From assembly GCA_963528875.1 (NCBI GenBank), contig CAURWT010000001.1, positions 180,001 through 212,000 of the forward strand: a stretch of DNA of 32,000 nt, written 5' to 3'. The notes under the pieces were generated by a model. It searched no databases. It saw only the letters and a list, made by a program, of their open reading frames with translations, and was not told the origin of the DNA. The position numbers were made by a program, and so were the translations under genes. Positions 20,682-32,000 of this stretch are shown one piece after another. The stretch is from an uncultured Candidatus Saccharimonas sp. GTDB lineage: Bacteria; Patescibacteriota; Saccharimonadia; Saccharimonadales; Saccharimonadaceae. Position 1 is the first letter of the stretch; each line of letters starts with the position of its first letter.

Positions 20682-20700
20682 AATTTAACCCTTTTGTCAA
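20672..20700 (-). promoter_or_regulatory. Near-consensus promoter TTGACA-17-TGaTAAAAT for the VirB6-like gene
   Basis: On the minus strand: -35 TTGACA (20695-20700), 17-nt spacer, TG (20679-20680), -10 TAAAAT (20672-20677). The ATG at 20663 begins 9 nt after the -10, so the transcript would be nearly leaderless. Confidence 0.6.
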
Positions 20701-20768
20701 CCTTAAAATTAAGTTTTTAGAATAAAACACTTGCTTTTTCCCTAAAAATGGTTTAAAGTATAATTATC

Positions 20769-21218
20769 ATGGTAAACAAAATAAAAAATATAATAATAGT
20801 TGGGCTGATTTTGACAAGCTTTTTCGCGGCTTTTCAGAGTATTATTATTTCGAATTATGGCTCTAGCTATGCTTTTGCTGAAGAGCTTGTGGAGGATGGT
20901 AATGGAAATCTAACCACGCCAAATGGTAATAACGGTAAAAGTGGTGGATCTCCCGCTGAAGCAAAAACTGCAATTCTCCCTTCAGACTGGAAAATTGAAG
21001 ATATTTTAAATATGGTTTTAGTTGTAGTAACTACTGGCGTTGGAATTGCAGCAGTTGGCTCGATTGTCTTTGCTGGCGTTTTGTATATTACCGCTCGCGA
21101 TAATGCTGCACAAGTTTCGAAAGCTAAAACAATGATTATGAATACAATTATCGGTATTATAGCTTATATTTTAATGTGGGCGTTCTTAGAGTGGATTATT
21201 CCAGGAGGAATTTTATAA
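20769..21218 (+). CDS. VirB2/TrbC-like T4SS pilin paralog 1
   Basis: 149 aa. Signal peptide, variable region, then a two-helix hydrophobic core with a polar loop (AGVLYITARDNAAQVSKAKTMIMNTIIGIIAYIL) shared with the five following ORFs. Confidence 0.8.
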   Translation: MVNKIKNIIIVGLILTSFFAAFQSIIISNYGSSYAFAEELVEDGNGNLTTPNGNNGKSGGSPAEAKTAILPSDWKIEDILNMVLVVVTTGVGIAAVGSIVFAGVLYITARDNAAQVSKAKTMIMNTIIGIIAYILMWAFLEWIIPGGIL

Positions 21219-21646
21219 TGAAAAAGATTATTCTAGCGATTTTTATAACTTTTATGCCAGTTTTATATTTTTCGAATAGTGCTTATGCGGCTGGTTGTAA
21301 CGATAATCAAACTTTTTTCGGTCTCCCCGCTTGGTATCGTGGATTAACTAAATCTGGCGAAGGCGGATGCCAAATTAAAAATATTGGGCCGTCTGGAAAG
21401 GGTGAAGTTACTTTAGAACAGTTTGTCTGGACAGTGGTTGCGAATGTTATTGATATGGCCTTTCGAATTGCTGGTGTTGCTGCAATAGGATTCATTATTT
21501 ATGCAGGTTATCAATATATGATTGCTGTTGGTGACCCAGGAAAACTTGCAGGTGCTAAAAAATCACTAACTAATGCAATAATCGGACTAGTGATTGCGGT
21601 TCTTGCTTCAACAATAGTAACGTTTATATTAGGAATTTTAGGATAA
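21218..21646 (+). CDS. VirB2/TrbC-like T4SS pilin paralog 2
   Basis: I place the start at 21218 (MKKIILAIFITF...) rather than the track's 21176. AGGAGG lies upstream and there is a TAATG overlap with paralog 1. Cys pair (AAGC...GGC), then the core AGYQYMIAVGDPGKLAGAKKSLTNAIIGLVIAVL. Confidence 0.8.
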   Translation: MKKIILAIFITFMPVLYFSNSAYAAGCNDNQTFFGLPAWYRGLTKSGEGGCQIKNIGPSGKGEVTLEQFVWTVVANVIDMAFRIAGVAAIGFIIYAGYQYMIAVGDPGKLAGAKKSLTNAIIGLVIAVLASTIVTFILGILG

Positions 21647-21966
21647 TGAAAGAATATAGATTTTTAGCAGAAGCATCCTTTGATAAATCAAAAGTATTAA
21701 ACGGGATTGATACTTCAAATAAAAACAAAGCTAGCGATGCTTCGATGCAGAATGCTTTCAATACTGCTTTTATCTGGGCTGGAATTATCTGTGTAATTAT
21801 AATTATTGTGGCAGGATTAACATTTATAACGGCTGCCGGAAATCCAGGAACAATTTCGAAAGCAAAATCTGCACTAATTTACGCTTGTGTAGGTATTGTT
21901 GTAATCATATCAGCCGCACTAATTGTTAACTTAATTCTTGGCGGATTACTAACGGGGTCAATATAA
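21646..21966 (+). CDS. VirB2/TrbC-like T4SS pilin paralog 3 (no obvious signal peptide)
   Basis: 106 aa. TAATG overlap at 21644-21648. Hydrophilic N-terminus, then the core AGLTFITAAGNPGTISKAKSALIYACVGIVVII. Confidence 0.75.
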   Translation: MKEYRFLAEASFDKSKVLNGIDTSNKNKASDASMQNAFNTAFIWAGIICVIIIIVAGLTFITAAGNPGTISKAKSALIYACVGIVVIISAALIVNLILGGLLTGSI

Positions 21967-22514
21967 TGAAAAAAATAATTTTAATAAGTAGCATTTTATT
22001 CTCAATAATTCTATCACCTATTGCTTTTGCGGAAGGTGGAACTAATGGGACTAATGGTAGTGGAGGAACATTTAACGCTTGCAAACATGTTGTTTCTGGA
22101 AAGACTGCAGTTTGTTCTGGTGATTCAAAAAATGCTACAAATATTGCTAAAAATATAATCTCCATTTTCCTGTGGGTTGTTGGTATAGCGGCGGTTATTG
22201 TTATTATTTACGCGGGAATAACATTTGTAACAGCAGCTGGAAATCCATCAGCAATTGCTCGAGCCAAAACAATGATAATTTATGCTGTTATTGGTTTAGC
22301 AGTTGCAATTCTCTCTTATGCGATTGTTAATTTCGTTATTAACACTTCAAGTGGAAAAGGAGTTAATGGAGGACCATCTGGAAGCTCGGGCAATTCTAGT
22401 GAATCTAATAATTCAAGTGGCTCAACTAATACTGGATCACAAAGTAAAAACCAAAATGGTGAAAATAGTTCAGGACAAAGTTCAAGCGGTTCGAATAGCT
22501 CAAATAATAATTAA
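21966..22514 (+). CDS. VirB2/TrbC-like T4SS pilin paralog 4 with a S/N/G-rich C-terminal tail
   Basis: 182 aa. TAATG overlap at 21964-21968. Signal peptide, Cys pair (NACKHVVSGKTAVCSG), core AGITFVTAAGNPSAIARAKTMIIYAVIGLAVAILSYAIVNFVIN, then about 55 aa of S/N/G low complexity. Confidence 0.8.
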   Translation: MKKIILISSILFSIILSPIAFAEGGTNGTNGSGGTFNACKHVVSGKTAVCSGDSKNATNIAKNIISIFLWVVGIAAVIVIIYAGITFVTAAGNPSAIARAKTMIIYAVIGLAVAILSYAIVNFVINTSSGKGVNGGPSGSSGNSSESNNSSGSTNTGSQSKNQNGENSSGQSSSGSNSSNNN

Positions 22515-22534
22515 AACAATATAAGGAGAATAAA

Positions 22535-22924
22535 ATGAAGAAAATTTTAATAGCTTTTGGATTAATTCTTGCGGTGACTGGCTCTTTTGCCTTCAATGCT
22601 GGATTTTTCGAAAAACAAGCTTATGCAAATAGTGCAGCAGATTTAATTAAACAAGGTGCAGATTCAACAGGCCAACAAGATACTCGTTCAGCTGGTGATA
22701 TTGCTAAAGATGTTGTAAATATAATGTTCTTTATCATTGGTGTTATGGCGGTTATTATGATTATTTGGGGTGGAATTCGATATGTTCTTTCAGCTGGAAA
22801 TAGTGCTGCTCTCACTAGTGCGAAAAATACAATCGTCTACTCTATTATAGGTTTAATTATCGCAATCCTCGCATACGCAATTGTGAACTTTGTTATTAAT
22901 ACTGTTGCAGGCGGCAATCGGTAA
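22535..22924 (+). CDS. VirB2/TrbC-like T4SS pilin paralog 5
   Basis: 129 aa. AAGGAG Shine-Dalgarno upstream. Signal peptide, then core GGIRYVLSAGNSAALTSAKNTIVYSIIGLIIAILAYAIVNFVIN. Confidence 0.8.
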   Translation: MKKILIAFGLILAVTGSFAFNAGFFEKQAYANSAADLIKQGADSTGQQDTRSAGDIAKDVVNIMFFIIGVMAVIMIIWGGIRYVLSAGNSAALTSAKNTIVYSIIGLIIAILAYAIVNFVINTVAGGNR

Positions 22925-22985
22925 TCATAAGACTTCAGATTTAAGTTTGTTAAGTTGAATGATGGATGGCTAATAATTAAAATAC

Positions 22986-23013
22986 TTGCAAAATAGTAAA
23001 AATTTGATATAAT
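22986..23013 (+). promoter_or_regulatory. Promoter TTGCAA-16-TGaTATAAT for pilin paralog 6
   Basis: -35 TTGCAA (22986-22991), TG (23005-23006), -10 TATAAT (23008-23013). Confidence 0.55.
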
Positions 23014-23052
23014 TTAGGTATATATAATTTAAGAAAGGAAATGTAATTTAAA

Positions 23053-23469
23053 ATGAAAAATATTGTAAAAATGGCTCTATTGACCGCTGCGACAATATTC
23101 ACTGTTGGTGCTACTACACTTGTAACAATTCCAGCTTACGCTGCTGATTGTAAGGTTACTGGTGGTTTGAAATCTGCTGATAGCTGTGCTAAAGGTGTTC
23201 AAGAAGAAAATGGTGGTCCAACAAGCTTGTTTGATGGCGACTCTCCAATTTTCACGACTGCAATCAATATTATGTTATTTATAATTGGTATTCTTAGCGT
23301 GATTATGCTTATTTATGGTGGTATTCGCTATGTGCTTTCGAGTGGTGATGCTGGTGCTGTTCAAAACGCTAAAAATACAATTATGTATGCTATTATTGGT
23401 CTTGTAATTGCAATCCTTGCTTACGCAATTGTTAACTTCGTTATTCATTCGATTACTAATAAAGAATAA
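23053..23469 (+). CDS. VirB2/TrbC-like T4SS pilin paralog 6 (own promoter and terminator)
   Basis: 138 aa. Signal peptide (..IPAYA/AD), Cys pair (ADCKVTGGLKSADSC), core GGIRYVLSSGDAGAVQNAKNTIMYAIIGLVIAILAYAIVNFVIH. Confidence 0.8.
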   Translation: MKNIVKMALLTAATIFTVGATTLVTIPAYAADCKVTGGLKSADSCAKGVQEENGGPTSLFDGDSPIFTTAINIMLFIIGILSVIMLIYGGIRYVLSSGDAGAVQNAKNTIMYAIIGLVIAILAYAIVNFVIHSITNKE

Positions 23470-23483
23470 TAAAATAAATAAAA

Positions 23484-23509
23484 AGACTTCATTTTGCAGA
23501 GGTCTTTTT
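23484..23509 (+). terminator. Rho-independent terminator after pilin paralog 6
   Basis: Stem agacttc (23484-23490) / gaggtct (23499-23505), with one G-U pair, followed by a T-run. Confidence 0.6.
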
Positions 23510-23562
23510 ATTTATTCGAAAATTTGTAAATTTTAAAAAATAAACTGATATAATAAAAATCC

Positions 23563-23578
23563 CGAAGTTTATACTTCG
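23563..23578. terminator. Small hairpin downstream of hsp20
   Basis: cgaagt (23563-23568) / acttcg (23573-23578) with a 4-nt loop. T-rich flanks on both strands. Confidence 0.35.
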
Positions 23579-23592
23579 AGAATTTTATTTTT

Positions 23593-24060
23593 CTACAGAA
23601 CTTTAATTCGTGTTGCTTGAGTTTTAACCTTTGTAAAGCTGATTGTTAAAATTCCATCTTTCAACATTGCTTCAACTTCATCTTCTTTGATCGGAACTGG
23701 AAGAGTTAGTGTTCGGCTAAATTCTCCCCAGTAGCATTCTTGTGCATGATGAGCGATAATTCCCTCTTGATCACCAGGATTTAGACTTCCGCTAATCGTT
23801 AAAGTTCCATCTGAAAGTGAAACATCCAAGTCATTTTTATTCACACCCGCAGTTCGTGCTTTAACAAAAAGCTTATCTTCTGTTTCATAAACATCAACAG
23901 CTAATTGACCAGGAAGTTCATTTTCTTCTTCCGCAATTTCAATTTGTTCAGATCCGCTGAAAGCTTCGTTTTCTGAAGTTTCCATCAAATCATCCCCAAA
24001 ATTGAAAGCAGCTTCCAATTCATCATTCAAAAAGCTATCATCATTTTGTCTTCTAGCCAT
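23593..24060 (-). CDS. Hsp20/alpha-crystallin family small heat-shock protein
   Basis: 155 aa. LAVDVYETEDKLFVKARTAGVNKNDLDVSLSDGTLTISG...GILTISF is the alpha-crystallin domain pattern. Strong GGAGGAAAA Shine-Dalgarno before the ATG. Confidence 0.92.
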   Translation of the reverse strand: MARRQNDDSFLNDELEAAFNFGDDLMETSENEAFSGSEQIEIAEEENELPGQLAVDVYETEDKLFVKARTAGVNKNDLDVSLSDGTLTISGSLNPGDQEGIIAHHAQECYWGEFSRTLTLPVPIKEDEVEAMLKDGILTISFTKVKTQATRIKVL

Positions 24061-24151
24061 TTTTCCTCCGCATTAAATTTCCTAAATAAGATTAATTTAC
24101 TTTATTATACCGCACTTTTATTATATAATCAAGAGGTAGAAACGATTTTTT

Positions 24152-24805
24152 ATGAAGAAAAGCATATACGAAATAATTTTAAATTCTTTCGCACCAGATG
24201 AGTGTTATTTTTGCCAAAAATTAGGCGAACCTATTTGCAAAAAATGCCTTGAATCAAGGTGTAATTTTGGTAATTCCCTTTCTCGCTCGAATAGTATTAT
24301 CTCGAAAGAATTTTATCTTTCGAAAAGGTCTGGAGAGCTTCAAAAAATAGTTGATGAATTTAAATTTCAAAGCAAGAGGCAGAATACTTATTATCTCGCA
24401 AAACTTTTATCTGATTTTCTGCTTTCGAATAGCGAATTTATTAATAATCGTGAAAAATTAGTTTTAATTCCTGTTCCAACACTTTCGAACCACATTCGTG
24501 AACGTGGTTTAGATCATACTGAGCTTTTGGCTCGTCAGCTTGCAGAGAATCTAAAAATTGAAAAATCAACATTAATTAAAAGAATAGCAAAAACTACACA
24601 ACGTGGCAAAAATTTTAAAACGCGACAAATTCAGGCAAAAAGTAGTTATGAGTTTACGGGAGAAAAGCTTTCGAAAGATAAAATTTATGTAATTTTTGAT
24701 GATATTCGTACAACTGGTGCAACTTTAAATTCGATCGCAAACCTCCTCCATCAAAACGGTGCAAAAGAAATTTGGGCGTTTTATTTACTTCAGCAAGAAA
24801 AATAA
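24152..24805 (+). CDS. comFC: ComF-family protein (ComFC-like phosphoribosyltransferase-fold competence protein)
   Basis: 217 aa. N-terminal 4-Cys cluster (C..C...C..C) and C-terminal PRTase motif VIFDDIRTTGATL. Confidence 0.85.
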   Translation: MKKSIYEIILNSFAPDECYFCQKLGEPICKKCLESRCNFGNSLSRSNSIISKEFYLSKRSGELQKIVDEFKFQSKRQNTYYLAKLLSDFLLSNSEFINNREKLVLIPVPTLSNHIRERGLDHTELLARQLAENLKIEKSTLIKRIAKTTQRGKNFKTRQIQAKSSYEFTGEKLSKDKIYVIFDDIRTTGATLNSIANLLHQNGAKEIWAFYLLQQEK

Positions 24806-24806
24806 C

Positions 24807-24835
24807 TTGAGAATTCAAAAAAAATGTGATATAAT
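24807..24835 (+). promoter_or_regulatory. Promoter TTGAGA-17-TGaTATAAT for tRNA-Ser(UGA)
   Basis: -35 at 24807-24812, TG at 24827-24828, -10 at 24830-24835. The tRNA starts at 24847. Confidence 0.55.
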
Positions 24836-24846
24836 GGAAAATATCT

Positions 24847-24936
24847 GGAGAGGTGGCCGAGTGGTTGAAGGCACCGGTCTTGAAAACCGGCATGCGGTAA
24901 AACGTATCGAGGGTTCGAATCCCTCCTTCTCCGCCA
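24847..24936 (+). tRNA. tRNA-Ser (anticodon UGA), CCA encoded
   Basis: Folded by hand. Acceptor GGAGAGG/CTTCTCC, anticodon stem CCGGT/ACCGG with loop CTTGAAA, long variable arm, T-arm GAGGG-TTCGAAT-CCCTC, then G-CCA. Confidence 0.93.
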
Positions 24937-24944
24937 AAATAGGT

Positions 24945-24970
24945 AATTCTGCTTAACGGCAGGATTTTCT
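24945..24970 (+). terminator. Hairpin after tRNA-Ser(UGA)
   Basis: aattctgc (24945-24952) / gcaggatt (24959-24966), with one G-U pair, then T-rich sequence. Confidence 0.4.
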
Positions 24971-24987
24971 ATTTTAATAGAGATTTT

Positions 24988-25016
24988 TTGAATTTTTAAA
25001 TAGCTTATGGTATAAT
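24988..25016 (+). promoter_or_regulatory. Promoter TTGAAT-17-TGgTATAAT; the downstream gene would be nearly leaderless
   Basis: -35 at 24988-24993, TG at 25008-25009, -10 at 25011-25016. The ATG at 25026 starts 10 nt after the -10. No Shine-Dalgarno. Confidence 0.5.
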
Positions 25017-25025
25017 TAAAATATT

Positions 25026-25703
25026 ATGAATTTCGACAATGAAAACCGAAATGGCGTTCCTCGCGTAACGGGTTTGCCTGAATCACAATTTCGAACACCT
25101 GAGGCGGGTAGTTTTATGGCTGAAAACCCTAAAGAATCTACTGAGCCGGTTTTTGAAGAAGTTAAACCTTTTAATCCAGAAGAATATACACAAGTTCGTG
25201 AAGTTGAAAATAATCAATCGCCCACTGAAAATATTGCCGAAGAACGAGAAATTGTTAATTGGCAAGCTCAAGACTTAATAATTGGTGATAAAAATAAATC
25301 TTGGTATATTATATTTTCAATTATTATTTTAGCATTTTGTCTTTTTGCAATTTTGAACCAATCTTGGACTTTTCTTGCTTTAATTATAGTGTCAGCTATT
25401 GGAATTCTAACTCTTCGAAAATCAAACCACACTCAAATCATATCTTATAGTCTTTCGACGCACGGAGTTTATATGGGTGAAACTTTTCATTCCTATGGTG
25501 AATTTCGAGCTTTTGGTATTCGAAAAGAAACAAATACTTATGCTATTATTCTTTTGCCTAAAAAACGCTTTTCGCCCAGCACAATTATTTACTTCCCAAA
25601 GGAAAATGGTGAAAAAATCACAGATATTATTGGCGCTCGCCTACCGATGGAAGAAGTTAAGCTTGATTTAATCGATAAAATTATTCGAAAAATAAATCTT
25701 TAA
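25026..25703 (+). CDS. Hypothetical membrane protein (two TM helices followed by a small soluble domain)
   Basis: 225 aa. Acidic N-terminus, TM pair (WYIIFSIIILAFCLFAIL / WTFLALIIVSAIGILTL), and a C-terminal domain loosely reminiscent of bacterial PH-like domains. Confidence 0.7.
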   Translation: MNFDNENRNGVPRVTGLPESQFRTPEAGSFMAENPKESTEPVFEEVKPFNPEEYTQVREVENNQSPTENIAEEREIVNWQAQDLIIGDKNKSWYIIFSIIILAFCLFAILNQSWTFLALIIVSAIGILTLRKSNHTQIISYSLSTHGVYMGETFHSYGEFRAFGIRKETNTYAIILLPKKRFSPSTIIYFPKENGEKITDIIGARLPMEEVKLDLIDKIIRKINL

Positions 25704-25705
25704 TC

Positions 25706-25734
25706 TTGCAATATTTTAAAAAATGTGCTAAAAT
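25706..25734 (+). promoter_or_regulatory. Promoter TTGCAA-17-TGcTAAAAT for tRNA-Arg
   Basis: -35 at 25706-25711, TG at 25726-25727, -10 at 25729-25734. Implies a leader of about 50 nt before the tRNA. Confidence 0.55.
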
Positions 25735-25792
25735 TTAAATGTCTGCTTAGTGTGGAAGAACTTCAAAAGTTAGCTACTGAAAAGTAGCATAT

Positions 25793-25869
25793 GCACCTGT
25801 AGCTCAGCTGGATAGAGCGTTGGCTTGCGGAGCCAAAGGTCGTAAGTTCGAATCTTGCCAGGTGTACCA
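25793..25869 (+). tRNA. tRNA-Arg (anticodon GCG), CCA encoded
   Basis: Folded by hand, 77 nt. Acceptor GCACCTG/CAGGTGT, D-arm GCTC..GAGC, anticodon stem TTGGC/GCCAA with loop TTGCGGA (U33, G34 C35 G36, G37), T-arm GTAAG-TTCGAAT-CTTGC. Confidence 0.88.
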
Positions 25870-25877
25870 TAGAAAAA

Positions 25878-25902
25878 GCATCAGAGTAATCTGGTGTTTT
25901 TT
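25878..25902 (+). terminator. Rho-independent terminator after tRNA-Arg
   Basis: catcaga (25879-25885) / tctggtg (25890-25896), with one G-U pair, followed by TTTTTT. Confidence 0.55.
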
Positions 25903-25911
25903 CTATTTTGG

Positions 25912-25920
25912 TGATATAAT
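25912..25920 (+). promoter_or_regulatory. Extended -10 promoter TGaTATAAT placing the start on the ATG of the deacetylase gene
   Basis: The -10 TATAAT at 25915-25920 is followed 7 nt later by the A of the ATG at 25927. No Shine-Dalgarno. Confidence 0.5.
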
Positions 25921-25926
25921 CGTTTT

Positions 25927-27384
25927 ATGATTAAAAAAATACCAAAAAGAATAAAAAATAGTAAGATTATATATATTTCAATTATCATTTTATTACTTTT
26001 ACTGAGTGGAATTATATTTCTTAATAAAATTAACCATAATGTAGAAGAAAAACACAATCAAGATATTACAAAGTATTATTTTAAAGATTCGAAATATAAT
26101 GGAATTAGCTCAAAATTTATTGAAAGAAAAAATTCAAAAGAAGATGCTATATTAGAAATCCCTGTTACGAAGAATAATAAAATCAATGAATTTATAAATA
26201 ATAAAATTCAAGAAATTGATGATACTTTTAAAGATGATGCGAAAAAATCAACTTTCGAAAATATTTCAACTGAAAGAATTAGCTATCAAGTTTATTATAA
26301 TAACGATGATGCTATTTCAATTTTAATTTCAATCAAACAAGATACTCATGGAGCGAATTTGAATGATCAAAATTTATTTTGGACTTTCAATGCTAAAAAT
26401 GGAGAAATTATAAAATTTAGTGACTTTTTAAACAATAAAGAGAAAGATAAATCTAATATTTTAGAAATTATTAAAAATAAAATTCAAGATTATTTAAAAA
26501 ATAGTAAAAAAGAATTCTCGAATGAAATTTTGAATGATTTAGATTTTGAAAGTTTCGAAAATATAATAATATTAGATAAACAAACGATTGATTTCCCTTT
26601 CTCTAAAGGTCAAATTATTCCTTCTAATTTTTCTTCGGTTCAATTTCAAATTAAAATTTCAGAAATTTCTAATTTCTTGCAAAATGATTTTTCAAGAAAA
26701 ATATTCGAAGTTCCTGATATACAAAATTCGAAACAAGTTCAAAAGACAGCGCCATTAACTTCTCAATCTCCTCTTCTTGATAAAGATTGTTCGAAATGTA
26801 TTGCTTTAACCTTTGATGATGGACCGGGCATATATACTGATAAACTGCTTTCTTATCTTCAAAGTTATAAAGCGAAGGCAACTTTCTTCATGATTGGCCC
26901 AAGTGCTCAGAGATATCCTTCTATTGTAAAGCGAGTTTTTGATAATGGACATCAAATTGGTAATCATACTTGGTCTCATTCTTCCTTGCCAAGCCTATCT
27001 CCTGCGCAAATTCAAAATGAAATAGCCTCAACCAATAATATTTTACAAGGAATTACGGGTGTAAAACCTACTACACTTAGACCTCCATATGGTGCAACTA
27101 ATGCGGCCGTGCAAAGAGTTGTTTCTAATCTTGAAATGAGTTCAGTTTTATGGTCTGTTGACACTCGCGACTGGGCGGATAGAAATTCGAATATTGTTTG
27201 CAATAGAGCAATCTCGAACGTACGACCCGGTGCAATAATTTTAATGCATGACATTCACCGAACATCAGTTGAAGCGGTTCCATGTATTCTGCAGAATTTA
27301 AGTTCTCAAGGTTATCAATTTGTAACTGTTGATAAGTTGCTTGGTAATCTTCAGCCTGGGCATATATATTATTCAGCAAAATAA
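25927..27384 (+). CDS. Membrane-anchored polysaccharide (peptidoglycan-type) deacetylase, NodB homology domain
   Basis: 485 aa. N-terminal TM and a K/N-rich unknown domain of about 270 aa. The C-terminal NodB domain shows the motifs LTFDDGP, HQIGNHTWSH, LRPPYG and ILMHD. Confidence 0.88.
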   Translation: MIKKIPKRIKNSKIIYISIIILLLLLSGIIFLNKINHNVEEKHNQDITKYYFKDSKYNGISSKFIERKNSKEDAILEIPVTKNNKINEFINNKIQEIDDTFKDDAKKSTFENISTERISYQVYYNNDDAISILISIKQDTHGANLNDQNLFWTFNAKNGEIIKFSDFLNNKEKDKSNILEIIKNKIQDYLKNSKKEFSNEILNDLDFESFENIIILDKQTIDFPFSKGQIIPSNFSSVQFQIKISEISNFLQNDFSRKIFEVPDIQNSKQVQKTAPLTSQSPLLDKDCSKCIALTFDDGPGIYTDKLLSYLQSYKAKATFFMIGPSAQRYPSIVKRVFDNGHQIGNHTWSHSSLPSLSPAQIQNEIASTNNILQGITGVKPTTLRPPYGATNAAVQRVVSNLEMSSVLWSVDTRDWADRNSNIVCNRAISNVRPGAIILMHDIHRTSVEAVPCILQNLSSQGYQFVTVDKLLGNLQPGHIYYSAK

Positions 27385-27407
27385 ATCTTTATTTAATCTC
27401 TGATATA

Positions 27408-27416
27408 TGATAAAAT
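27408..27416 (+). promoter_or_regulatory. Extended -10 promoter TGaTAAAAT for tRNA-Ser(CGA)
   Basis: TG at 27408-27409, -10 TAAAAT at 27411-27416. The tRNA starts at 27426. Confidence 0.45.
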
Positions 27417-27425
27417 GTAAATATT

Positions 27426-27515
27426 GGAGAGGTGGCCGAGTGGTTGAAGGCGCACGACTCGAAATCGTGTATGCGGGCAACCGTATCGGGGGTTCGAATC
27501 CCCCCTTCTCCGCCA
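27426..27515 (+). tRNA. tRNA-Ser (anticodon CGA), CCA encoded
   Basis: Folded by hand, 90 nt. Acceptor and D-arm are identical to the Ser(UGA) gene. Anticodon stem CACGA/TCGTG with loop CTCGAAA, long variable arm, T-arm GGGGG-TTCGAAT-CCCCC. Confidence 0.93.
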
Positions 27516-27522
27516 CGAAAGT

Positions 27523-27545
27523 AGCTCGCGTTTGCGGGCTTTTTT
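27523..27545 (+). terminator. Rho-independent terminator after tRNA-Ser(CGA)
   Basis: agctcgc (27523-27529) / gcgggct (27534-27540), with one G-U pair, followed by TTTTT. Confidence 0.6.
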
Positions 27546-27553
27546 CGTATCTA

Positions 27554-27582
27554 TTGACTTTAGCTTTAGTGTCTGTTAAAAT
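27554..27582 (+). promoter_or_regulatory. Promoter TTGACT-17-TGtTAAAAT ahead of the 131-aa membrane protein gene
   Basis: -35 at 27554-27559, TG at 27574-27575, -10 at 27577-27582. Confidence 0.55.
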
Positions 27583-27634
27583 TGAAAGATATTTTTATAA
27601 ATAGTTCTTTTAGAAATGAGGTCAATGTCAATAT

Positions 27635-28030
27635 ATGAAAAAGATGTTTTTTCAATTTGTTTTTGTTTATGTGTTTTCGCTAATTGCTGCGATATTACTG
27701 TTAATTCTCAAATCAGAAAGTTCAGAATTTAGCTATTTTATAGCACGAATTTTACTTTTTGGATACAGCGTACTAACGAGTGCGTTGCTTTTTGTTCCAA
27801 GATTTATAATAGGGTTATTAGAGAAGATTTTTAAGAATAGTGTTGATGACCTTAATGAATCTCTGGAAGATTCAATATCTTGGCCATATATTGTTTTATT
27901 TGTTTTTATTCTAGATGTATTCTTCGGATTAACTTTATTGATCCCTATATATGTTATTATACAATCTAGTTATATTTTATATAGGTTTGCTAGGATATAT
28001 AAAACTTTAATTTCAGAAAATCCAGAATAA
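27635..28030 (+). CDS. Hypothetical small polytopic membrane protein
   Basis: 131 aa with 3-4 hydrophobic helices and no recognisable motif. Lies in the TTCGAA-free segment. Confidence 0.6.
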   Translation: MKKMFFQFVFVYVFSLIAAILLLILKSESSEFSYFIARILLFGYSVLTSALLFVPRFIIGLLEKIFKNSVDDLNESLEDSISWPYIVLFVFILDVFFGLTLLIPIYVIIQSSYILYRFARIYKTLISENPE

Positions 28031-28239
28031 TAACCTCTCTAAGTCAGCAAAAGCTGGTTTTTTTATTTTTTAAAAATAAAAAAACTGCTATTTTTCTGAT
28101 TCCGATAATGTATTTGAAATAAAAAAGAATGCTGACAAATAAACATTCTTTTTTATGTTCACTTTGATAAACATTATAAAATTTGTCTGTTTAGTTACCA
28201 AAAAGCTACCAATAGATTTGTAATTTTTAAAAAATAAAT

Positions 28240-28326
28240 TAGTAGTACTATATTTAAATACCTAGTTATCTAAAAGAATAAATTTACTAGATTAGTAAAT
28301 TAGAATTTGCCAGTAATGATATTACT
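28240..28326. repeat. Three short palindromes sharing TAGTA/TACTA-type half-sites in a 400-bp AT-rich non-coding gap
   Basis: tagta-g-tacta (28240-28250). aatttacta-gat-tagtaaatt (28281-28301, perfect 9-bp arms). agtaat-gat-attact (28312-28326). Confidence 0.4.
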
Positions 28327-28430
28327 ATAGTTTGTTTCTATATAATCATTTATGGTTATTGAAGGAAAATACATTAATAACTACTATGTGCTTTTTTATA
28401 TAGCCTAGATGATTTTTACAAACACCCAGA

Positions 28431-30293
28431 TTATATATTAGCTAGCTTTGATTTGTAAAATTCTAACTCATCGTTAATTCTCATAACATAAAAAATGACT
28501 ATTTGGAGCAACTCTAAGTATTTTTTTTGATGTTCCTCTTCACTTTTATAAGAAAATTTTCCATGAGAGAATTTATTTCGAATCTTCAACCCATTACCAT
28601 ATTTTTTATCATCCAAAATATAAGATAAATAATTACTTTCATATTCAGAAAAAAGATTATCTGAATATTCACAATACCCTTTCTTGCAAAGGTCTTCTGT
28701 AATATCTAGTATCAATTTATCTTTATAGTATAGGCAATACGTACCTGACTTCCATAATTTATTCAAAATGTTAATTTCTTGGAAATTTGTAAATTTTATT
28801 ACATCATTTGATAGTCTTAAAATGTTCTTTTCTATTAGGATTTTTATTTGTTCTACCTGATAATCAGCAAAATCAGAAATCTTTACTCCTTCTTTTATAT
28901 GTTTGAAGAAGGTTTTAAGTTCTTTTTTTGATGAAATAAAGCTAAGTGGACTTTGGTCAGAAAAAAGCGCAGAGAACAATGCAGAATTATCAGGTGTGTT
29001 GTTCAATTTGATAAATTTTTTCTCATTGAACGATTTTAATGAAGCATAAGAGGAGGCTTTAGATTTAATCTCTAATAAATCTTGGTTGATTTCCCCATTT
29101 CTAACAAATAGTTCGTATTGGTCTAAGATACTATCCATTTCACAAATTATTGATTTCCCTCTTTCGTAATAAGAGGATTCTTTATTAGAAGCATGGAAAT
29201 GAAAACCTTTTATATCTAACTCCGTTTCAAGATAAATATTGAAATACCATTCTATTATCTCTTCGACATCAATTTTATTTTGTTTTAAGTAATTAAAATA
29301 TACCTTAAATAATAAATTGTGGTAAAATTTTAAGTGAGGACAATAAGAATCATAATGAGCATTTGATTTGTGAGAAAAGAAACGAGTGAAGCTGAATGTT
29401 TCTTCATTCGCAACTAGCCAATGCAATCCCGTTTCACGATTAAAGAAGCCAAGTAAATAAAAATTATTTAATAACGTCGGAAAATCATGATGTTCATCTA
29501 GTATAGTTTTATTTAAAAGAATACCATTCTCAATAGGCTCACATAATTTATCAGAATCTAAAGGCTTGATGCCAACTGATATAGAGTAATGCATCCCTTC
29601 ATTAGTTTCAAAATGTTTTTCCCAAAATTTATCACTTTTTCTTTTAGCTAAAAGCTTAACCTCATCATCAAACTCATATTTGCTTAATTTTTTATAATCA
29701 ACAATTGATTGTAAATAATTTGGGTTAATATTATCTTTCTGACAATATTCTCTTGCTAGATTATTTATCTCTTCATTTGTGATACCTAACTTAATGTATA
29801 AACCATTAGAATCTATGAATTTTCCTGATTGATGATTTAAGAAAAATTCTATATTTCTGGACCGAGAGAGAAAATTTTCTTTGATAACTTGCGGAAATAG
29901 GCTAATCAGTTTTGCAACATTTCTAAGATTTATTGTCTGGATATTATATTTTTTAATATATGATTCAAACTGACTAACATCATCTTTATTAATTTTTCCT
30001 AAGAATAATACTAACTCCCAGAATATGTCTTTATAAAAAATGTCAATGCTATCATAGTCTATTTCAAAAATGGTAATTGGGAAATTCTTGGATATATCGT
30101 TATGAAATTTTGAAATTAGATGTTTGAAGTTATAAAATTGATTTTCTTTTTTAATTAATTTCAGGATTAAATAGGTTTCTATTAAATTATTAATTTCAGC
30201 CGAAGGTCTATAAGCTTTAATGCAGTTTAGAGCTATATCATATTGGTATGGCTCTATTACATTGTTAGGAGTATGAAATCTTTTATGTTGCAT
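28431..30293 (-). CDS. Large uncharacterised protein with a C-terminal HEPN-like RNxxxH motif; candidate defence effector
   Basis: 620 aa, very AT-rich, K/N/F/Y-rich. No P-loop or nuclease motif that I recognise, except GLKIRNKFSHGKF (R572-H577, nt 28563-28580) followed by a predicted helix. Starts 77 nt downstream of the MmeI-like gene on the same strand. Confidence 0.75.
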   Translation of the reverse strand: MQHKRFHTPNNVIEPYQYDIALNCIKAYRPSAEINNLIETYLILKLIKKENQFYNFKHLISKFHNDISKNFPITIFEIDYDSIDIFYKDIFWELVLFLGKINKDDVSQFESYIKKYNIQTINLRNVAKLISLFPQVIKENFLSRSRNIEFFLNHQSGKFIDSNGLYIKLGITNEEINNLAREYCQKDNINPNYLQSIVDYKKLSKYEFDDEVKLLAKRKSDKFWEKHFETNEGMHYSISVGIKPLDSDKLCEPIENGILLNKTILDEHHDFPTLLNNFYLLGFFNRETGLHWLVANEETFSFTRFFSHKSNAHYDSYCPHLKFYHNLLFKVYFNYLKQNKIDVEEIIEWYFNIYLETELDIKGFHFHASNKESSYYERGKSIICEMDSILDQYELFVRNGEINQDLLEIKSKASSYASLKSFNEKKFIKLNNTPDNSALFSALFSDQSPLSFISSKKELKTFFKHIKEGVKISDFADYQVEQIKILIEKNILRLSNDVIKFTNFQEINILNKLWKSGTYCLYYKDKLILDITEDLCKKGYCEYSDNLFSEYESNYLSYILDDKKYGNGLKIRNKFSHGKFSYKSEEEHQKKYLELLQIVIFYVMRINDELEFYKSKLANI

Positions 30294-30370
30294 ATCTGTG
30301 ATATCCTTCTTAAATTTGTGCGTTTCTATGTGATGCTTAAAGTAATTGAGTTTATCTTGAAGACTTTTTA

Positions 30371-32000
30371 TTATTTGGTTTTTGTTATATCTTCATACAT
30401 CTCAAACAATCTTGCTACTGTTTCACTTTCGGTTAACCAAGTTTTCTTGCCATCAATATTTTTTTGCATACCATAAGCTTCCATAACCGCTTTATCGTTA
30501 GCTTGGTGGGCTTGACGAAGTTCAGCAGGCATGGTTAACTCATCATAGAGATCTGCCAAGGAGCTATCGGGATATAGCGCACGTGCATCAAGAATAGCTT
30601 GGGCAGTTTTAGAAATCTTCTCTTTTTGAGCTTCGGTCACTTCTGGCCAAGGGAAGTTGTTGTAAACTATCTTAGCTGAATAACGATAATCTGATTTAAG
30701 ACGACCAGCAACCGTACGCATCCAAGCCATATGGACATTAGAAGTTAAAATACTAAAGTCATAAAGAGTAGCATTTGGAATAATTTGTACAGCATCACTT
30801 GAAATTATTTGACCATCGATAAAACCAATCGGTATATATCTTCTGTTTTCTGAAGATACCCTTGGAATTAGTAAATAATCATTATCATTATGTCTTATCT
30901 CTTGGAATTCCATGGCTCTTTCAGCGCTATCTTGAGTTTGTTTTTTAGGACTATTTTGTCGAAACTCTTTTACTAATTGTATCCTATTTAGAATTGGCGG
31001 AATATTCCGTAAAGTACTAGGATTTTGTCCTACTAACCATAAGCAATATCTTTCTTTATTGTTTATAAATTCTGAAGCTCCATATACTTGCCGTATCATT
31101 AAGTCAGCTTGTGGATATTTCTTAATAAGTTCGTTCTTTTCTTGCAATGTTAAGAAAAGATATCCCCCATCAGTTGGTTTACTGCCATAAACCATTGGTA
31201 AGACTTTGCATATTGGCTTGCTTCTGCTATCAATGAAAATTAGGTCTCCATCGATTAAATATGGATTAATTTGTTGAACAATTATTTTTGTTTCGTTATC
31301 ATAAATAACTTTGTTTTTTGAATTATCCAATACAGAAAATCCAATTATTACACAGTGAACAGCTGCTTTATCTTTTGCTTCACTATTCCACTTAAATGTT
31401 CTGTATGCAAAGTCTATATGGATTCCAAATCGTTCGTAAAGTGGTTTCCAGACACTAGACACTTGCTCTCCCTGAGTTATTGAATTTGTTGATACTAGAG
31501 CAGTTCGTATAGAACTTCCTTGCATTAGGAGGCTCGCTTTAAAATACCATGCTGAAACAAAATCAATTTTGCCAGCTGTTTTATATGGTTTACTGTTCTC
31601 ATCAACATAGACACTCAATAAATCAGCTTTTTGCTTAGGTGATTGGAGTGAATACCCCAAAAATGGTGGATTACCAATAATATAGCTCAACTTATGTTTA
31701 GGAACCACTGTCTCCCAATCAATCTCTAAAGCATTCCCTTCAACAATATTTGTATAAGACTTAAGAGGTAGAAAATCAATGTTTGTATATACAATATCTT
31801 TAGTCTCTTCCAACATTTGGCTTTCTGCAATCCAAAGTGCGGTTTTAGCTACAGAAACGGCAAAGTTATTAATCTCAATGCCATAAAATTGATTCAGTTG
31901 GACTTTGATAAGTTCTTGTCCGACGTCAAGCGCAACAGTGTCTCCCACATAGAGCTTAATGGCTTCATTCTCTAAGCGTCGAAGAGAAACGTATGTTTCC
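30371..32000 (-). CDS. MmeI-family (Type IIG/IIL) N6-adenine DNA methyltransferase / RM fusion, N-terminus outside the window
   Basis: The frame stays open upstream of the track's GTG at 31948 all the way to the window edge (..ETYVSLRRLENEAIKLYVGDT..). YGIEIN, IIGNPPF (motif IV, nt 31661-31672), STNSITQGEQV, FAYRTFKW, and the C-terminal NNFPWP...LADLYDELTMPAELRQAHQANDKAVMEAYG are hallmarks of MmeI-like enzymes. Confidence 0.88.
   Translation of the reverse strand, partial: ETYVSLRRLENEAIKLYVGDTVALDVGQELIKVQLNQFYGIEINNFAVSVAKTALWIAESQMLEETKDIVYTNIDFLPLKSYTNIVEGNALEIDWETVVPKHKLSYIIGNPPFLGYSLQSPKQKADLLSVYVDENSKPYKTAGKIDFVSAWYFKASLLMQGSSIRTALVSTNSITQGEQVSSVWKPLYERFGIHIDFAYRTFKWNSEAKDKAAVHCVIIGFSVLDNSKNKVIYDNETKIIVQQINPYLIDGDLIFIDSRSKPICKVLPMVYGSKPTDGGYLFLTLQEKNELIKKYPQADLMIRQVYGASEFINNKERYCLWLVGQNPSTLRNIPPILNRIQLVKEFRQNSPKKQTQDSAERAMEFQEIRHNDNDYLLIPRVSSENRRYIPIGFIDGQIISSDAVQIIPNATLYDFSILTSNVHMAWMRTVAGRLKSDYRYSAKIVYNNFPWPEVTEAQKEKISKTAQAILDARALYPDSSLADLYDELTMPAELRQAHQANDKAVMEAYGMQKNIDGKKTWLTESETVARLFEMYEDITKTK

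What the first reader, a model, noticed from the sequence alone, without database searches (positions are those of the whole stretch)
28431..32000. MmeI-like methyltransferase/RM gene paired with a 620-aa unknown protein bearing a HEPN-type RNxxxH motif: candidate undescribed two-gene defence module
The two genes lie on the same strand, 77 nt apart, with a GAAGGA ribosome-binding site before the second, so co-transcription is likely. The first has all MmeI-family hallmarks (NPPF, STNSITQGEQ, FAYRTFKW, C-terminal LADLYD..MP..L..AH). MmeI-type enzymes normally act as single-polypeptide systems, so a conserved partner would be unexpected. The partner has no P-loop or classical nuclease signature that I can see. 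It does end with ..KYGNGLKIRNKFSHGKF.. followed by a helix. This is the R-[polar]-x3-H signature of HEPN RNases, which are common toxin or effector domains in abortive-infection and RM-linked systems. The large N-terminal 550 aa could be a sensor. The partner may be an Abi-like backup to the RM enzyme, or a regulator of it.
Basis: partly seen in the sequence, partly recalled or inferred. Interest (0 to 1): 0.7.

Follow-up and report, generated by a model that had tools for sequence, protein, structure and literature searches.

The report
RM-linked HEPN-like defence candidate gene
The 620-aa protein belongs to a large, untested family of candidate phage-defence genes (PADLOC PDC-S56) with an invariant HEPN-type RNxxxHG motif; the family often sits inside restriction-modification operons, but its pairing with the MmeI-type enzyme here is confined to one lineage and is not an obligate two-gene system.

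Summary
Two minus-strand genes lie 77 nt apart: an MmeI-family type IIG RM gene, cut off by the window end, and a 620-aa ORF with an RNxxxH motif.

The 620-aa protein is not undescribed. It matches PADLOC's single-gene candidate PDC-S56 over its full length (E 6.6e-114). PDC candidates were predicted from embedding in BREX, DISARM or type I RM operons and have not been tested.

The family is large, with 1017 clusters at 50% identity. N573 and H577 are invariant and R572 is present in 133 of 135 diverse members. Sub-threshold Pfam hits to the HEPN families DUF4209 (C6orf70) and RiboL-PSP fall on the motif. AF2 models are confident (pLDDT 92-93), but Foldseek found no PDB match, so the HEPN fold is unconfirmed.

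The MmeI pairing is not conserved:
- It occurs only in Ca. Saccharimonas and one Streptococcus, where the 620-aa gene is broken.
- Relatives 83-92% identical sit alone on streptococcal integrative elements or behind a DUF1706 gene.
- In at least 10 of 44 distant lineages the gene lies in type I RM operons, commonly hsdM-hsdS-X-hsdR, as PrrC does.

Most likely reading: an autonomous, RM-associated HEPN-like RNase effector that moves as a promoter-less cassette.

The parts
28431..30293 (-). 620-aa gene, a member of PADLOC candidate family PDC-S56. The predicted protein is mostly alpha-helical, with tandem winged-helix-like inserts (about aa 420-545) and a C-terminal HEPN-like module (about aa 550-620).
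   Evidence: ORF. PADLOC PDLC05039 E 6.6e-114, residues 3-615 against profile 7-643/649. AF2 pLDDT 92.9, pTM 0.90. Weak winged-helix Foldseek hits for the C-terminal half.
28563..28580 (-). Codons for R572-N573-K-F-S-H577, the RNxxxH(G) motif and putative HEPN catalytic dyad.
   Evidence: N573 and H577 are 135/135 and R572 is 133/135 in alignment A1. In the AF2 model the motif lies in a short helix (571-576) before a 35-residue C-terminal helix (585-619). DUF4209 and RiboL-PSP sub-threshold alignments cover this region.
30294..30370 (-). 77-nt intergenic leader with GAAGGA (30304-30309), 10 nt before the ATG. No terminator-like or promoter-like site was called on this strand.
   Evidence: Sequence and scan. 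The leader is conserved in all MmeI-linked loci and also in the MmeI-less S. mitis locus L014.
30371..32000 (-). 3' 542 codons of an MmeI-family type IIG restriction-modification gene (methyltransferase, TRD and C-terminal domains). The N-terminal nuclease and helicase-spacer part lies beyond the window.
   Evidence: PADLOC REase_MTase_IIG E 1e-214, profile positions 377-910/912. Full-length syntenic copies of 933-941 aa carry MmeI_N and MmeI_hel.
28089..28430 (-). Conserved non-coding 3' region that travels with the 620-aa gene. It ends in an AGAATG...CATTCT hairpin flanked by A/T runs (about 28121-28154), probably the transcription terminator.
   Evidence: 94% identity to L019 in an unrelated context. 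Present in L004, L006 and L025, and interrupted in L013. No ORF above 37 aa. No Rfam match.

Best explanation
The 620-aa protein is a member of the PDC-S56 family. I read it as a self-contained defence effector whose C-terminal RNxxxHG module is a HEPN-type, metal-independent RNase site. HEPN enzymes usually form this site by dimerisation. The large helical N-terminal part and the tandem winged-helix inserts would act as the sensor and regulator.

The gene spreads horizontally as a promoter-less cassette made of an RBS, the ORF and a roughly 340-nt 3' region. It lands downstream of other genes, preferentially inside or just after restriction-modification operons. In this Ca. Saccharimonas genome it sits behind, and is probably co-transcribed with, a full MmeI-type type IIG enzyme.

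The likely logic is layered defence. RM attacks incoming DNA, and the HEPN-like protein provides an RNA-targeting, abortive-infection-type second line. It does not need MmeI specifically.

Shown: family membership, motif invariance, gene order and the variable contexts.

Inferred: the HEPN fold, RNase activity, the defence function and the trigger.
For: - Family: full-length PDC-S56 match. PDCs were defined by embedding in BREX, DISARM or type I RM and are untested.
- Size: 1017 representative clusters at E<=1e-3, mostly 620-670 aa.
- Motif: R572 133/135, N573 and H577 135/135. The family consensus LRNKYxHG equals the RNxxxHG signature.
- HEPN link: sub-threshold hits to DUF4209 (8 of 40 members, 12-16 bits) and HEPN_RiboL-PSP, all aligned on the motif. 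DUF4209/C6orf70 is listed as a HEPN family that 'occurs in R-M related operons' (PMC3710099).
- RM context: hsdM-hsdS-hsdR-X at L031 with a 78-nt gap. At least 10 of 44 dereplicated metagenomic lineages carry type I RM subunits on the same strand. hsdM-hsdS-X-hsdR recurs with gaps of 1-4 nt or overlaps.
- Immediate neighbours: HsdR-type 6-7 and HsdS 4 of 67, plus a C5 methylase, an AspBHI-like REase, AbiEii, KAP NTPase, ApeA and PLD-helicase-DUF3427.
- Autonomy: relatives at 83-92% identity lack MmeI.
- Cassette behaviour: homology to L019 starts 24 nt before the ATG and extends 342 nt past the stop.
- Each partner decays alone: MmeI is split in L026 and p620 is split in L013.
Against: - No Pfam HEPN model reaches its gathering score. 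PDB profile searches found no HEPN.
- No experiment exists for PDC-S56; a full-text search found 0 papers.
- No antitoxin or obvious regulator is seen beside solo copies.
- Several contexts show no defence gene nearby (L035, the Pseudoalteromonas plasmid).
Confidence: 0.55

Rival explanations
1. Functionally coupled guard, the first reader's model in PrrC-like form. The 620-aa protein binds the adjacent RM enzyme (MmeI here, HsdMSR elsewhere) and is held latent by it. It fires as an RNase when a phage anti-restriction factor disables the RM enzyme.
For: - The hsdM-hsdS-X-hsdR order with 1-4 nt gaps or overlaps is the prrA-B-C-D arrangement (PrrC description in PMC3710099).
- The MmeI-p620 block, with its conserved 77-78 nt junction, is shared by Saccharimonas and Streptococcus sp. 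HSISM1, so it has moved or persisted as a unit.
- No promoter or terminator was called between the genes.
Against: - Near-identical copies (92% aa) work in contexts with no RM neighbour.
- The RM partners belong to unrelated architectures (type I versus type IIG), which makes one specific protein interface unlikely.
- It has no ABC ATPase domain like the one in PrrC and RloC.
- MmeI is truncated in L026 while the p620 gene is intact, which a toxin restrained by MmeI should not tolerate.
Confidence: 0.2
2. Not a nuclease. The RNxxxHG module is a non-catalytic nucleic-acid-binding or ligand-binding HEPN-like element, as in MtlR. The protein would be an accessory or regulatory factor, using its winged-helix domains for example in DNA or RNA binding or in RM regulation.
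For: - Tandem winged-helix-like domains give weak MarR, PadR and SelB Foldseek hits.
- There is a weak MIF4G-like N-terminal similarity to CNOT1, E about 1e-3.
- Non-catalytic HEPN domains are known (PMC3710099 abstract).
- No fold-level HEPN match was found.
Against: - Non-catalytic HEPN families typically lose the R/H dyad. Here it is invariant over roughly 25%-identity divergence.
- Its distribution on mobile elements and in defence operons fits an effector better than a housekeeping regulator.
Confidence: 0.15
3. A selfish or addiction cargo gene of mobile elements, such as a toxin-like stabilisation module, with no direct role in phage defence. On this view its RM proximity only reflects shared integration hotspots.
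For: - It sits on small integrase, Rep_trans and XRE elements, on ICE-like regions and on plasmids.
- It is AT-rich relative to its hosts (26.6% versus 33.5% GC).
- It shows 88-94% nucleotide identity across phyla.
Against: - Its precise same-strand insertion inside type I RM operons, in many independent lineages, is typical of defence cargo. [quoted passage not shown]
- No cognate antitoxin gene travels with it.
Confidence: 0.1

Closest known systems
PADLOC PDC-S56 (phage defence candidate, single gene; Payne et al., bioRxiv 10.1101/2024.01.29.577857)
   Same: Full-length HMM match (E 6.6e-114). It is a single-gene unit. Homologs are embedded in type I RM operons, which is the criterion used to nominate PDCs.
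   Different: PDC-S56 is only a bioinformatic candidate, with no published function, domain assignment or test.
DUF4209 / C6orf70 (ERMARD) HEPN family (Anantharaman et al. 2013, PMC3710099)
   Same: It has the same RNxxxHG signature before a C-terminal helix. Bacterial members are reported in R-M related operons. The recurrent sub-threshold Pfam alignments fall exactly on the motif.
   Different: Scores are 12-16 bits against a 22.3-bit cut-off, so it is not a formal member. The roughly 550-aa N-terminal architecture is unrelated to the TPR or WD40 fusions described for C6orf70.
PrrC / RloC anticodon nucleases
   Same: It has a C-terminal HEPN-type Rx4-6H module. Family members sit between hsdS and hsdR of type I RM operons, exactly as prrC does. 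The proposed role is likewise a second-line, RNA-targeting defence.
   Different: It has no ABC ATPase or P-loop domain and a different N-terminal fold. It is often solo, and here it sits beside a type IIG enzyme. No evidence of interaction with the RM enzyme or of tRNA cleavage exists.
HEC-08 (DUF3644 HEPN protein embedded in Hma systems; same Payne et al. study)
   Same: It is a single-gene HEPN-motif protein found by embedding in a defence operon. In HEC-08, mutating the Rx4-6H histidine abolished defence.
   Different: It belongs to a different HEPN family with an N-terminal HEPN and zinc-ribbon C-terminus. No sequence relationship was shown here.
MmeI-family type IIG RM enzymes (neighbour gene)
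   Same: The neighbour has all five MmeI Pfam domains in syntenic full-length copies, plus the NPPF catalytic motif.
   Different: MmeI enzymes are single-polypeptide systems with no known partner. The partner seen here is lineage-restricted.

Membership tests
HEPN superfamily | Rx4-6H motif with a polar residue (N/D/H) after R, conserved across the family | tested here: met
   R572 133/135, N573 135/135, H577 135/135. Family consensus LRNKYxHG.
HEPN superfamily | All-alpha four-helix up-down bundle with the motif at the start of the last core helix | tested here: inconclusive
HEPN superfamily | Significant profile match to a curated HEPN family | tested here: not met
   DUF4209 scored 12.1-16.3 bits (cut-off 22.3). 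HEPN_RiboL-PSP scored 13.4 bits (cut-off 28.4). HEPN_Apea had E 0.31. All are sub-threshold but aligned on the motif.
HEPN superfamily | Metal-independent endoribonuclease activity dependent on R and H | not testable with these tools
   Needs biochemistry or mutagenesis.
PADLOC PDC-S56 | Full-length match to the family HMM | tested here: met
   PDLC05039 E 6.6e-114, 379.8 bits, residues 3-615 against 7-643/649. The second model PDLC05038 matches only residues 479-614.
PADLOC PDC-S56 | Homologs embedded in BREX, DISARM or type I RM operons (the nomination criterion) | tested here: met
   L031, L038, L057, L073, L083, L105 and L107, among others. At least 10 of 44 lineages.
PADLOC PDC-S56 | Demonstrated anti-phage activity | not testable with these tools
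   PDCs are described as untested. No paper mentions PDC-S56.
PrrC/RloC anticodon nucleases | N-terminal ABC ATPase (Rad50/SbcC-like) domain | tested here: not met
   No Pfam or NCBIfam ATPase hit and no P-loop. The model is helical with winged-helix inserts.
PrrC/RloC anticodon nucleases | Gene embedded between hsdS and hsdR of a type I RM locus (PrrC) | tested here: met
   Met for distant homologs (L057, L073, L083, L105, L107). Not met for the window copy, which follows a type IIG gene.
Obligate two-gene MmeI + 620-aa module | Conserved co-occurrence of the two genes across relatives | tested here: not met
   MmeI is upstream in 3 of 14 genome loci and in the Saccharimonas P0036 contigs. 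It is absent from the P0008 contexts (92% identity), from 11 Streptococcus loci, from plasmids, and from the listed family tallies for the neighbours of the 44 metagenomic lineages.
MmeI-family type IIG RM (neighbour gene) | MmeI methyltransferase, TRD and C-terminal domains with the NPPF motif | tested here: met
   Pfam E 1e-69, 5e-77 and 2e-23. NPPF is visible in the translation.
MmeI-family type IIG RM (neighbour gene) | N-terminal endonuclease domain on the same polypeptide | tested here: inconclusive
   It lies outside the window. It is present in the syntenic copies L004, L013 and L025 (MmeI_N 3e-36 to 3e-37).

The most novel reading that the evidence does not exclude
The family could be an ATPase-less, PrrC-like 'restriction guard': a latent HEPN RNase that docks onto RM enzymes of different architectures and fires when phage anti-restriction factors disable them. 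The partners would include a single-chain MmeI-type type IIG enzyme, for which no partner protein is known. It would also be spreading between Saccharibacteria (CPR) and oral streptococci as a promoter-less cassette.
Probability: 0.2. Interest if true: 0.65.

Novelty: new member of a known kind. Interest (0 to 1): 0.4.

Why it matters
PDC-S56 is a large family, with more than 1000 clusters at 50% identity, and it is entirely uncharacterised. This analysis gives it three things:
- a concrete and testable catalytic hypothesis (R572, N573, H577);
- a confident structural model;
- a documented PrrC-like position in type I RM operons, plus one type IIG context.

If the family is an RNase effector, it would add an ATPase-less class to the RM-linked HEPN second-line defences.

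The 88-94% nucleotide identity between copies in Ca. Saccharimonas and in Streptococcus also documents recent exchange of defence cargo between phyla in the oral microbiome.

For the scan itself, the main result is a correction. The two-gene MmeI module is not a conserved system, and the partner gene was already catalogued as a candidate.

Tried and rejected
- Foldseek against the PDB with the full-length model and with the C-terminal-half model: nothing at E<0.1. The hits were TPR, HAT and 14-3-3 repeats for the full-length model and winged helices for the half model.
- PDB sequence-profile searches gave only a marginal CNOT1 MIF4G hit for residues of about 65-167 (E about 1e-3) and nothing for the C-terminal half. 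I treat the MIF4G hit as an unverified lead.
- NCBIfam scans gave nothing meaningful.
- tblastn against the phage collection found no match, so the gene is not phage-borne in INPHARED.
- The second and third protein searches were largely wasted. The A1 profile re-found close relatives. The C-terminal profile A8 returned only short fragments of the same family. One fragment is named DUF4145 by UniRef, but Pfam here does not confirm that.
The narrower alignment A4 worked.
- I looked for an antitoxin, small ORF or known RNA in the conserved 3' region and found none. The covariation test was uninformative because the copies are nearly identical.
- I considered tRNA-Ser as an integration site. No integrase and no att repeat was examined within the window. 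The island is only the two genes between pgi and a 131-aa gene.
- The held part of the Payne et al. supplement does not include the PDC-S56 row.
Full report
**1. What is in the window.**

Both genes lie on the minus strand. The 620-aa ORF runs 28431..30293. Upstream of it, an MmeI-like ORF ends at 30371 and has no stop up to base 32000, so only its last 542 codons are in the window. The gap between them is 77 nt, with GAAGGA 10 nt before the ATG. The consensus scan called no terminator-like or promoter-like site on that strand between the genes, so co-transcription here is plausible.

The MmeI identification is solid.
- Pfam gives MmeI_Mtase, MmeI_TRD and MmeI_C at 1e-69, 5e-77 and 2e-23.
- PADLOC gives REase_MTase_IIG at 1e-214, matching profile positions 377-910 of 912.
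- Syntenic full-length copies (933-941 aa) carry the MmeI_N nuclease and helicase-spacer domains too.

The neighbour is therefore a complete type IIG restriction-modification enzyme.

The window's flanks are 95% identical to a Ca. Saccharimonas (TM7) MAG. Three tRNA genes lie nearby.

**2. The 620-aa protein is already catalogued.**

It has no Pfam or NCBIfam hit. It matches PADLOC model PDLC05039, 'PDC-S56', over its full length (E 6.6e-114).

PDC systems come from Payne et al. (bioRxiv 10.1101/2024.01.29.577857). They nominated 145 'phage defence candidates' because the genes are embedded in BREX, DISARM or type I RM operons. The authors describe them as untested. No paper in the library mentions PDC-S56.

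**3. Family and motif.**

An exhaustive phmmer search found 1017 representative clusters (50% identity) at E<=1e-3 and 338 at E<=1e-30. Most are 620-670 aa and match end to end.

In an alignment of 135 members at 20-45% identity to the query, only N573 and H577 are invariant, and R572 is R in 133 of 135. The family consensus is N-x5-NG-x-D-L-R-N-K-Y-x-H-G, followed by Y592 and IKINDEF. This is the commonest form of the HEPN Rx4-6H signature, with a polar residue after R.

Scanning family members against Pfam gave only sub-threshold hits, but they recur in the same place.
- DUF4209 hit 8 of 40 members (best E 0.006), the family consensus (14.5 bits, profile positions 55-86 of 89) and two independent C-terminal fragments (16.3 and 15.8 bits).
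- HEPN_RiboL-PSP hit 3 of 40 members (13.4 bits, profile 134-189 of 191).
- HEPN_Apea hit one member.
- All these hits align on the RNxxxH segment.

DUF4209 is the C6orf70 HEPN family of Anantharaman et al. 2013. They list it as Rx4-6H-conserved and as occurring 'in R-M related operons' (PMC3710099). From my own recollection, Pfam describes DUF4209 as carrying a conserved RNxxxHG motif.

**4. Structure.**

AF2 with the 135-sequence alignment gave pLDDT 92.9 and pTM 0.90. The C-terminal half alone (residues 305-620, 40 sequences) gave pLDDT 92.2.

The protein is mainly helical, with small beta elements. The motif sits in a short helix (571-576) followed by a 35-residue terminal helix.

The HEPN fold is therefore neither confirmed nor excluded. 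HEPN bundles are short and divergent, and Foldseek handles them poorly; that last point is my inference. A marginal sequence-profile hit of residues of about 65-167 to the CNOT1 MIF4G domain (E about 1e-3) was not followed up.

**5. Is MmeI a conserved partner? No.**

Among 14 loci from species-representative genomes, MmeI lies directly upstream in only three. Two are Ca. Saccharimonas MAGs syntenic with the window. The third is Streptococcus sp. HSISM1, where the 620-aa gene is broken into three ORFs.

The other eleven are S. mitis, S. cristatus, S. infantis, S. halitosis and unnamed Streptococcus loci. Ten of them carry the gene at 83-90% identity (L014 at 73%, L012 at 55-56%). In several, the gene is solo cargo of small elements encoding a tyrosine integrase, a Rep_trans initiator and XRE regulators, often next to an Nmad2/Nmad3 pair.

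The closest relative outside the species (P0008, 92% aa) follows a DUF1706 gene by 6 nt, close to a ribosomal-protein operon, with no RM gene nearby. At the DNA level the window's homology to that locus is 94%. It starts only 24 nt before the ATG and runs 342 nt past the stop. The mobile unit is thus RBS + ORF + a conserved non-coding 3' region, that is, a promoter-less cassette.

In the Saccharimonas lineage (P0036, 89% aa) the order is always pgi, MmeI, p620, a 131-aa gene, then polysaccharide deacetylase. One contig there has MmeI split into 845 + 89 aa.

The 77-78-nt junction is conserved in all MmeI-linked loci. It also persists in the MmeI-less S. mitis locus L014. The pair has therefore persisted or moved as a block at least once, but neither gene depends on the other.

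**6. The family-wide association is with RM systems in general, mainly type I.**

- A 31%-identical homolog (P0126) lies 78 nt after hsdM-hsdS-hsdR on the same strand.
- A metagenome scan with a narrower alignment returned 80 loci, which collapse to 44 lineages at 85% identity.
- phmmer tagging found type I RM subunits on the same strand within four genes in at least 10 of the 44. Eight of the 44 contigs are too short to judge.
- The recurrent order is hsdM-hsdS-X-hsdR (L057, L073, L083, L105, L107; HsdS-to-X gaps of 1-4 nt where the two genes are adjacent (L057, L083, L105, L107), X-to-HsdR gaps small or overlapping) or hsdM-hsdS-hsdR-X (L038).
- Pfam and PADLOC tallies of the 67 immediate neighbours agree, with HsdR-type 6-7 and HsdS 4.
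- Singletons include a C5 DNA methylase, an AspBHI-like REase, AbiEii, KAP NTPase, ApeA_NTD1 and IS66.
- Other neighbours include two PLD-helicase-DUF3427 proteins and an SMC/ABC-type ATPase.
- No MmeI-family neighbour appeared in these lineages.
- Plasmid homologs in B. thuringiensis, Pseudoalteromonas and Enterococcus have no RM neighbour. The Enterococcus copy sits among recombinases, a TIR protein and helicases.
- A Lactococcus-type copy lies on an ICE-like region.

Chance adjacency to a type I RM operon should be well under 1% per gene (my estimate), so the enrichment is real. The hsdS-X-hsdR position is the one PrrC occupies in the prr locus (PMC3710099).

**7. Mechanism.**

Best reading (about 0.55): an autonomous HEPN-like RNase effector, with an N-terminal sensor region, that rides in or behind RM operons as a second defence layer. 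The MmeI adjacency here is one instance of that habit.

The specific guard model has the protein held latent by the neighbouring RM enzyme and released when RM is inhibited. It remains possible (about 0.2). Four observations weaken it:
- nearly identical copies occur in RM-free contexts;
- the RM partners have unrelated architectures;
- there is no PrrC-like ATPase domain;
- either partner can decay on its own.

A non-catalytic or regulatory role (about 0.15) and a purely selfish mobile-element role (about 0.1) cannot be excluded without experiments.

**8. Novelty and score.**

The gene is a new instance of a catalogued but unstudied candidate family. Its kind, an RM-linked HEPN-type second-line effector, has been known since PrrC and the 2013 HEPN survey.

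New here:
- the motif-level HEPN assignment for PDC-S56;
- the confident model with winged-helix inserts;
- the type IIG context;
- the cassette-like mobility;
- the exchange between Saccharibacteria and Streptococcus.

The claimed undescribed two-gene module is not supported. Interest 0.4.

Noticed in passing
window 28089-28430 (- strand); L019 7867-8208; L013 11867-11979 and 15913-16046: A non-coding region of about 340 nt downstream of the 620-aa gene is carried with it into unrelated genomic contexts (94% identity). It has no ORF above 37 aa and no Rfam match. It ends in an AGAATG...CATTCT hairpin flanked by A/T runs. In L013 it is split by an insertion of about 3.9 kb. Whether it is a long 3' UTR, a regulatory RNA or a recombination site is unknown.
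   Followed up: partly
window 28089-30317 vs L019, L001, L003, L013: The gene is 88-94% identical at the nucleotide level between Ca. Saccharimonas (CPR) and Streptococcus or other oral-metagenome contigs. Its GC is 26.6% against 33.5% for the window. Both point to recent horizontal transfer across phyla.
   Followed up: partly
window 28142-32000 vs L004 8293-12156; window 18137-27860 vs L004 12159-21863: Between the window and its closest MAG, the MmeI+p620 block is 88.7% identical whereas the flanking core genes are 95.2% identical. The defence block is either evolving faster or has been replaced by recombination.
   Followed up: no
L001 8108-9630, also L005, L007, L010, L011: In Streptococcus integrative elements the 620-aa gene sits next to a divergently oriented Nmad2/Nmad3 gene pair (nucleotide-modification-associated domains). 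This may be another defence cargo.
   Followed up: partly
L026 3109-5922: In one Saccharimonas contig the MmeI gene is split into 845 + 89 aa while the downstream 620-aa gene is identical to intact loci. Conversely, in Streptococcus sp. HSISM1 (L013 10001-11867) the 620-aa gene is in three pieces behind an intact MmeI. Assembly errors are not excluded.
   Followed up: no
window 24759-24956 and 27407-27604 (+): Two listed ORFs (65 aa each) overlap tRNA-Ser genes (24847-24936 and 27426-27515) and are almost certainly spurious.
   Followed up: yes
620-aa protein residues ~65-167 (window ~29793-30101, -): A marginal profile match (E about 1e-3) to the MIF4G domain of CNOT1 in the PDB hints at a HEAT/MIF4G-like helical repeat in the N-terminal region.
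   Followed up: no
window 27635-28030 (+): A 131-aa predicted membrane protein with no Pfam hit is conserved between tRNA-Ser and the defence block in the related Saccharimonas loci L006 and L025-L030 (not called in L004).
   Followed up: no
PADLOC model PDLC05038 vs residues 479-614: A second PDC-S56 HMM matches only the C-terminal winged-helix + RNxxxH part (E 1.2e-23). PDC-S56 may therefore contain a subfamily that shares the C-terminal module but has a different N-terminus.
   Followed up: no
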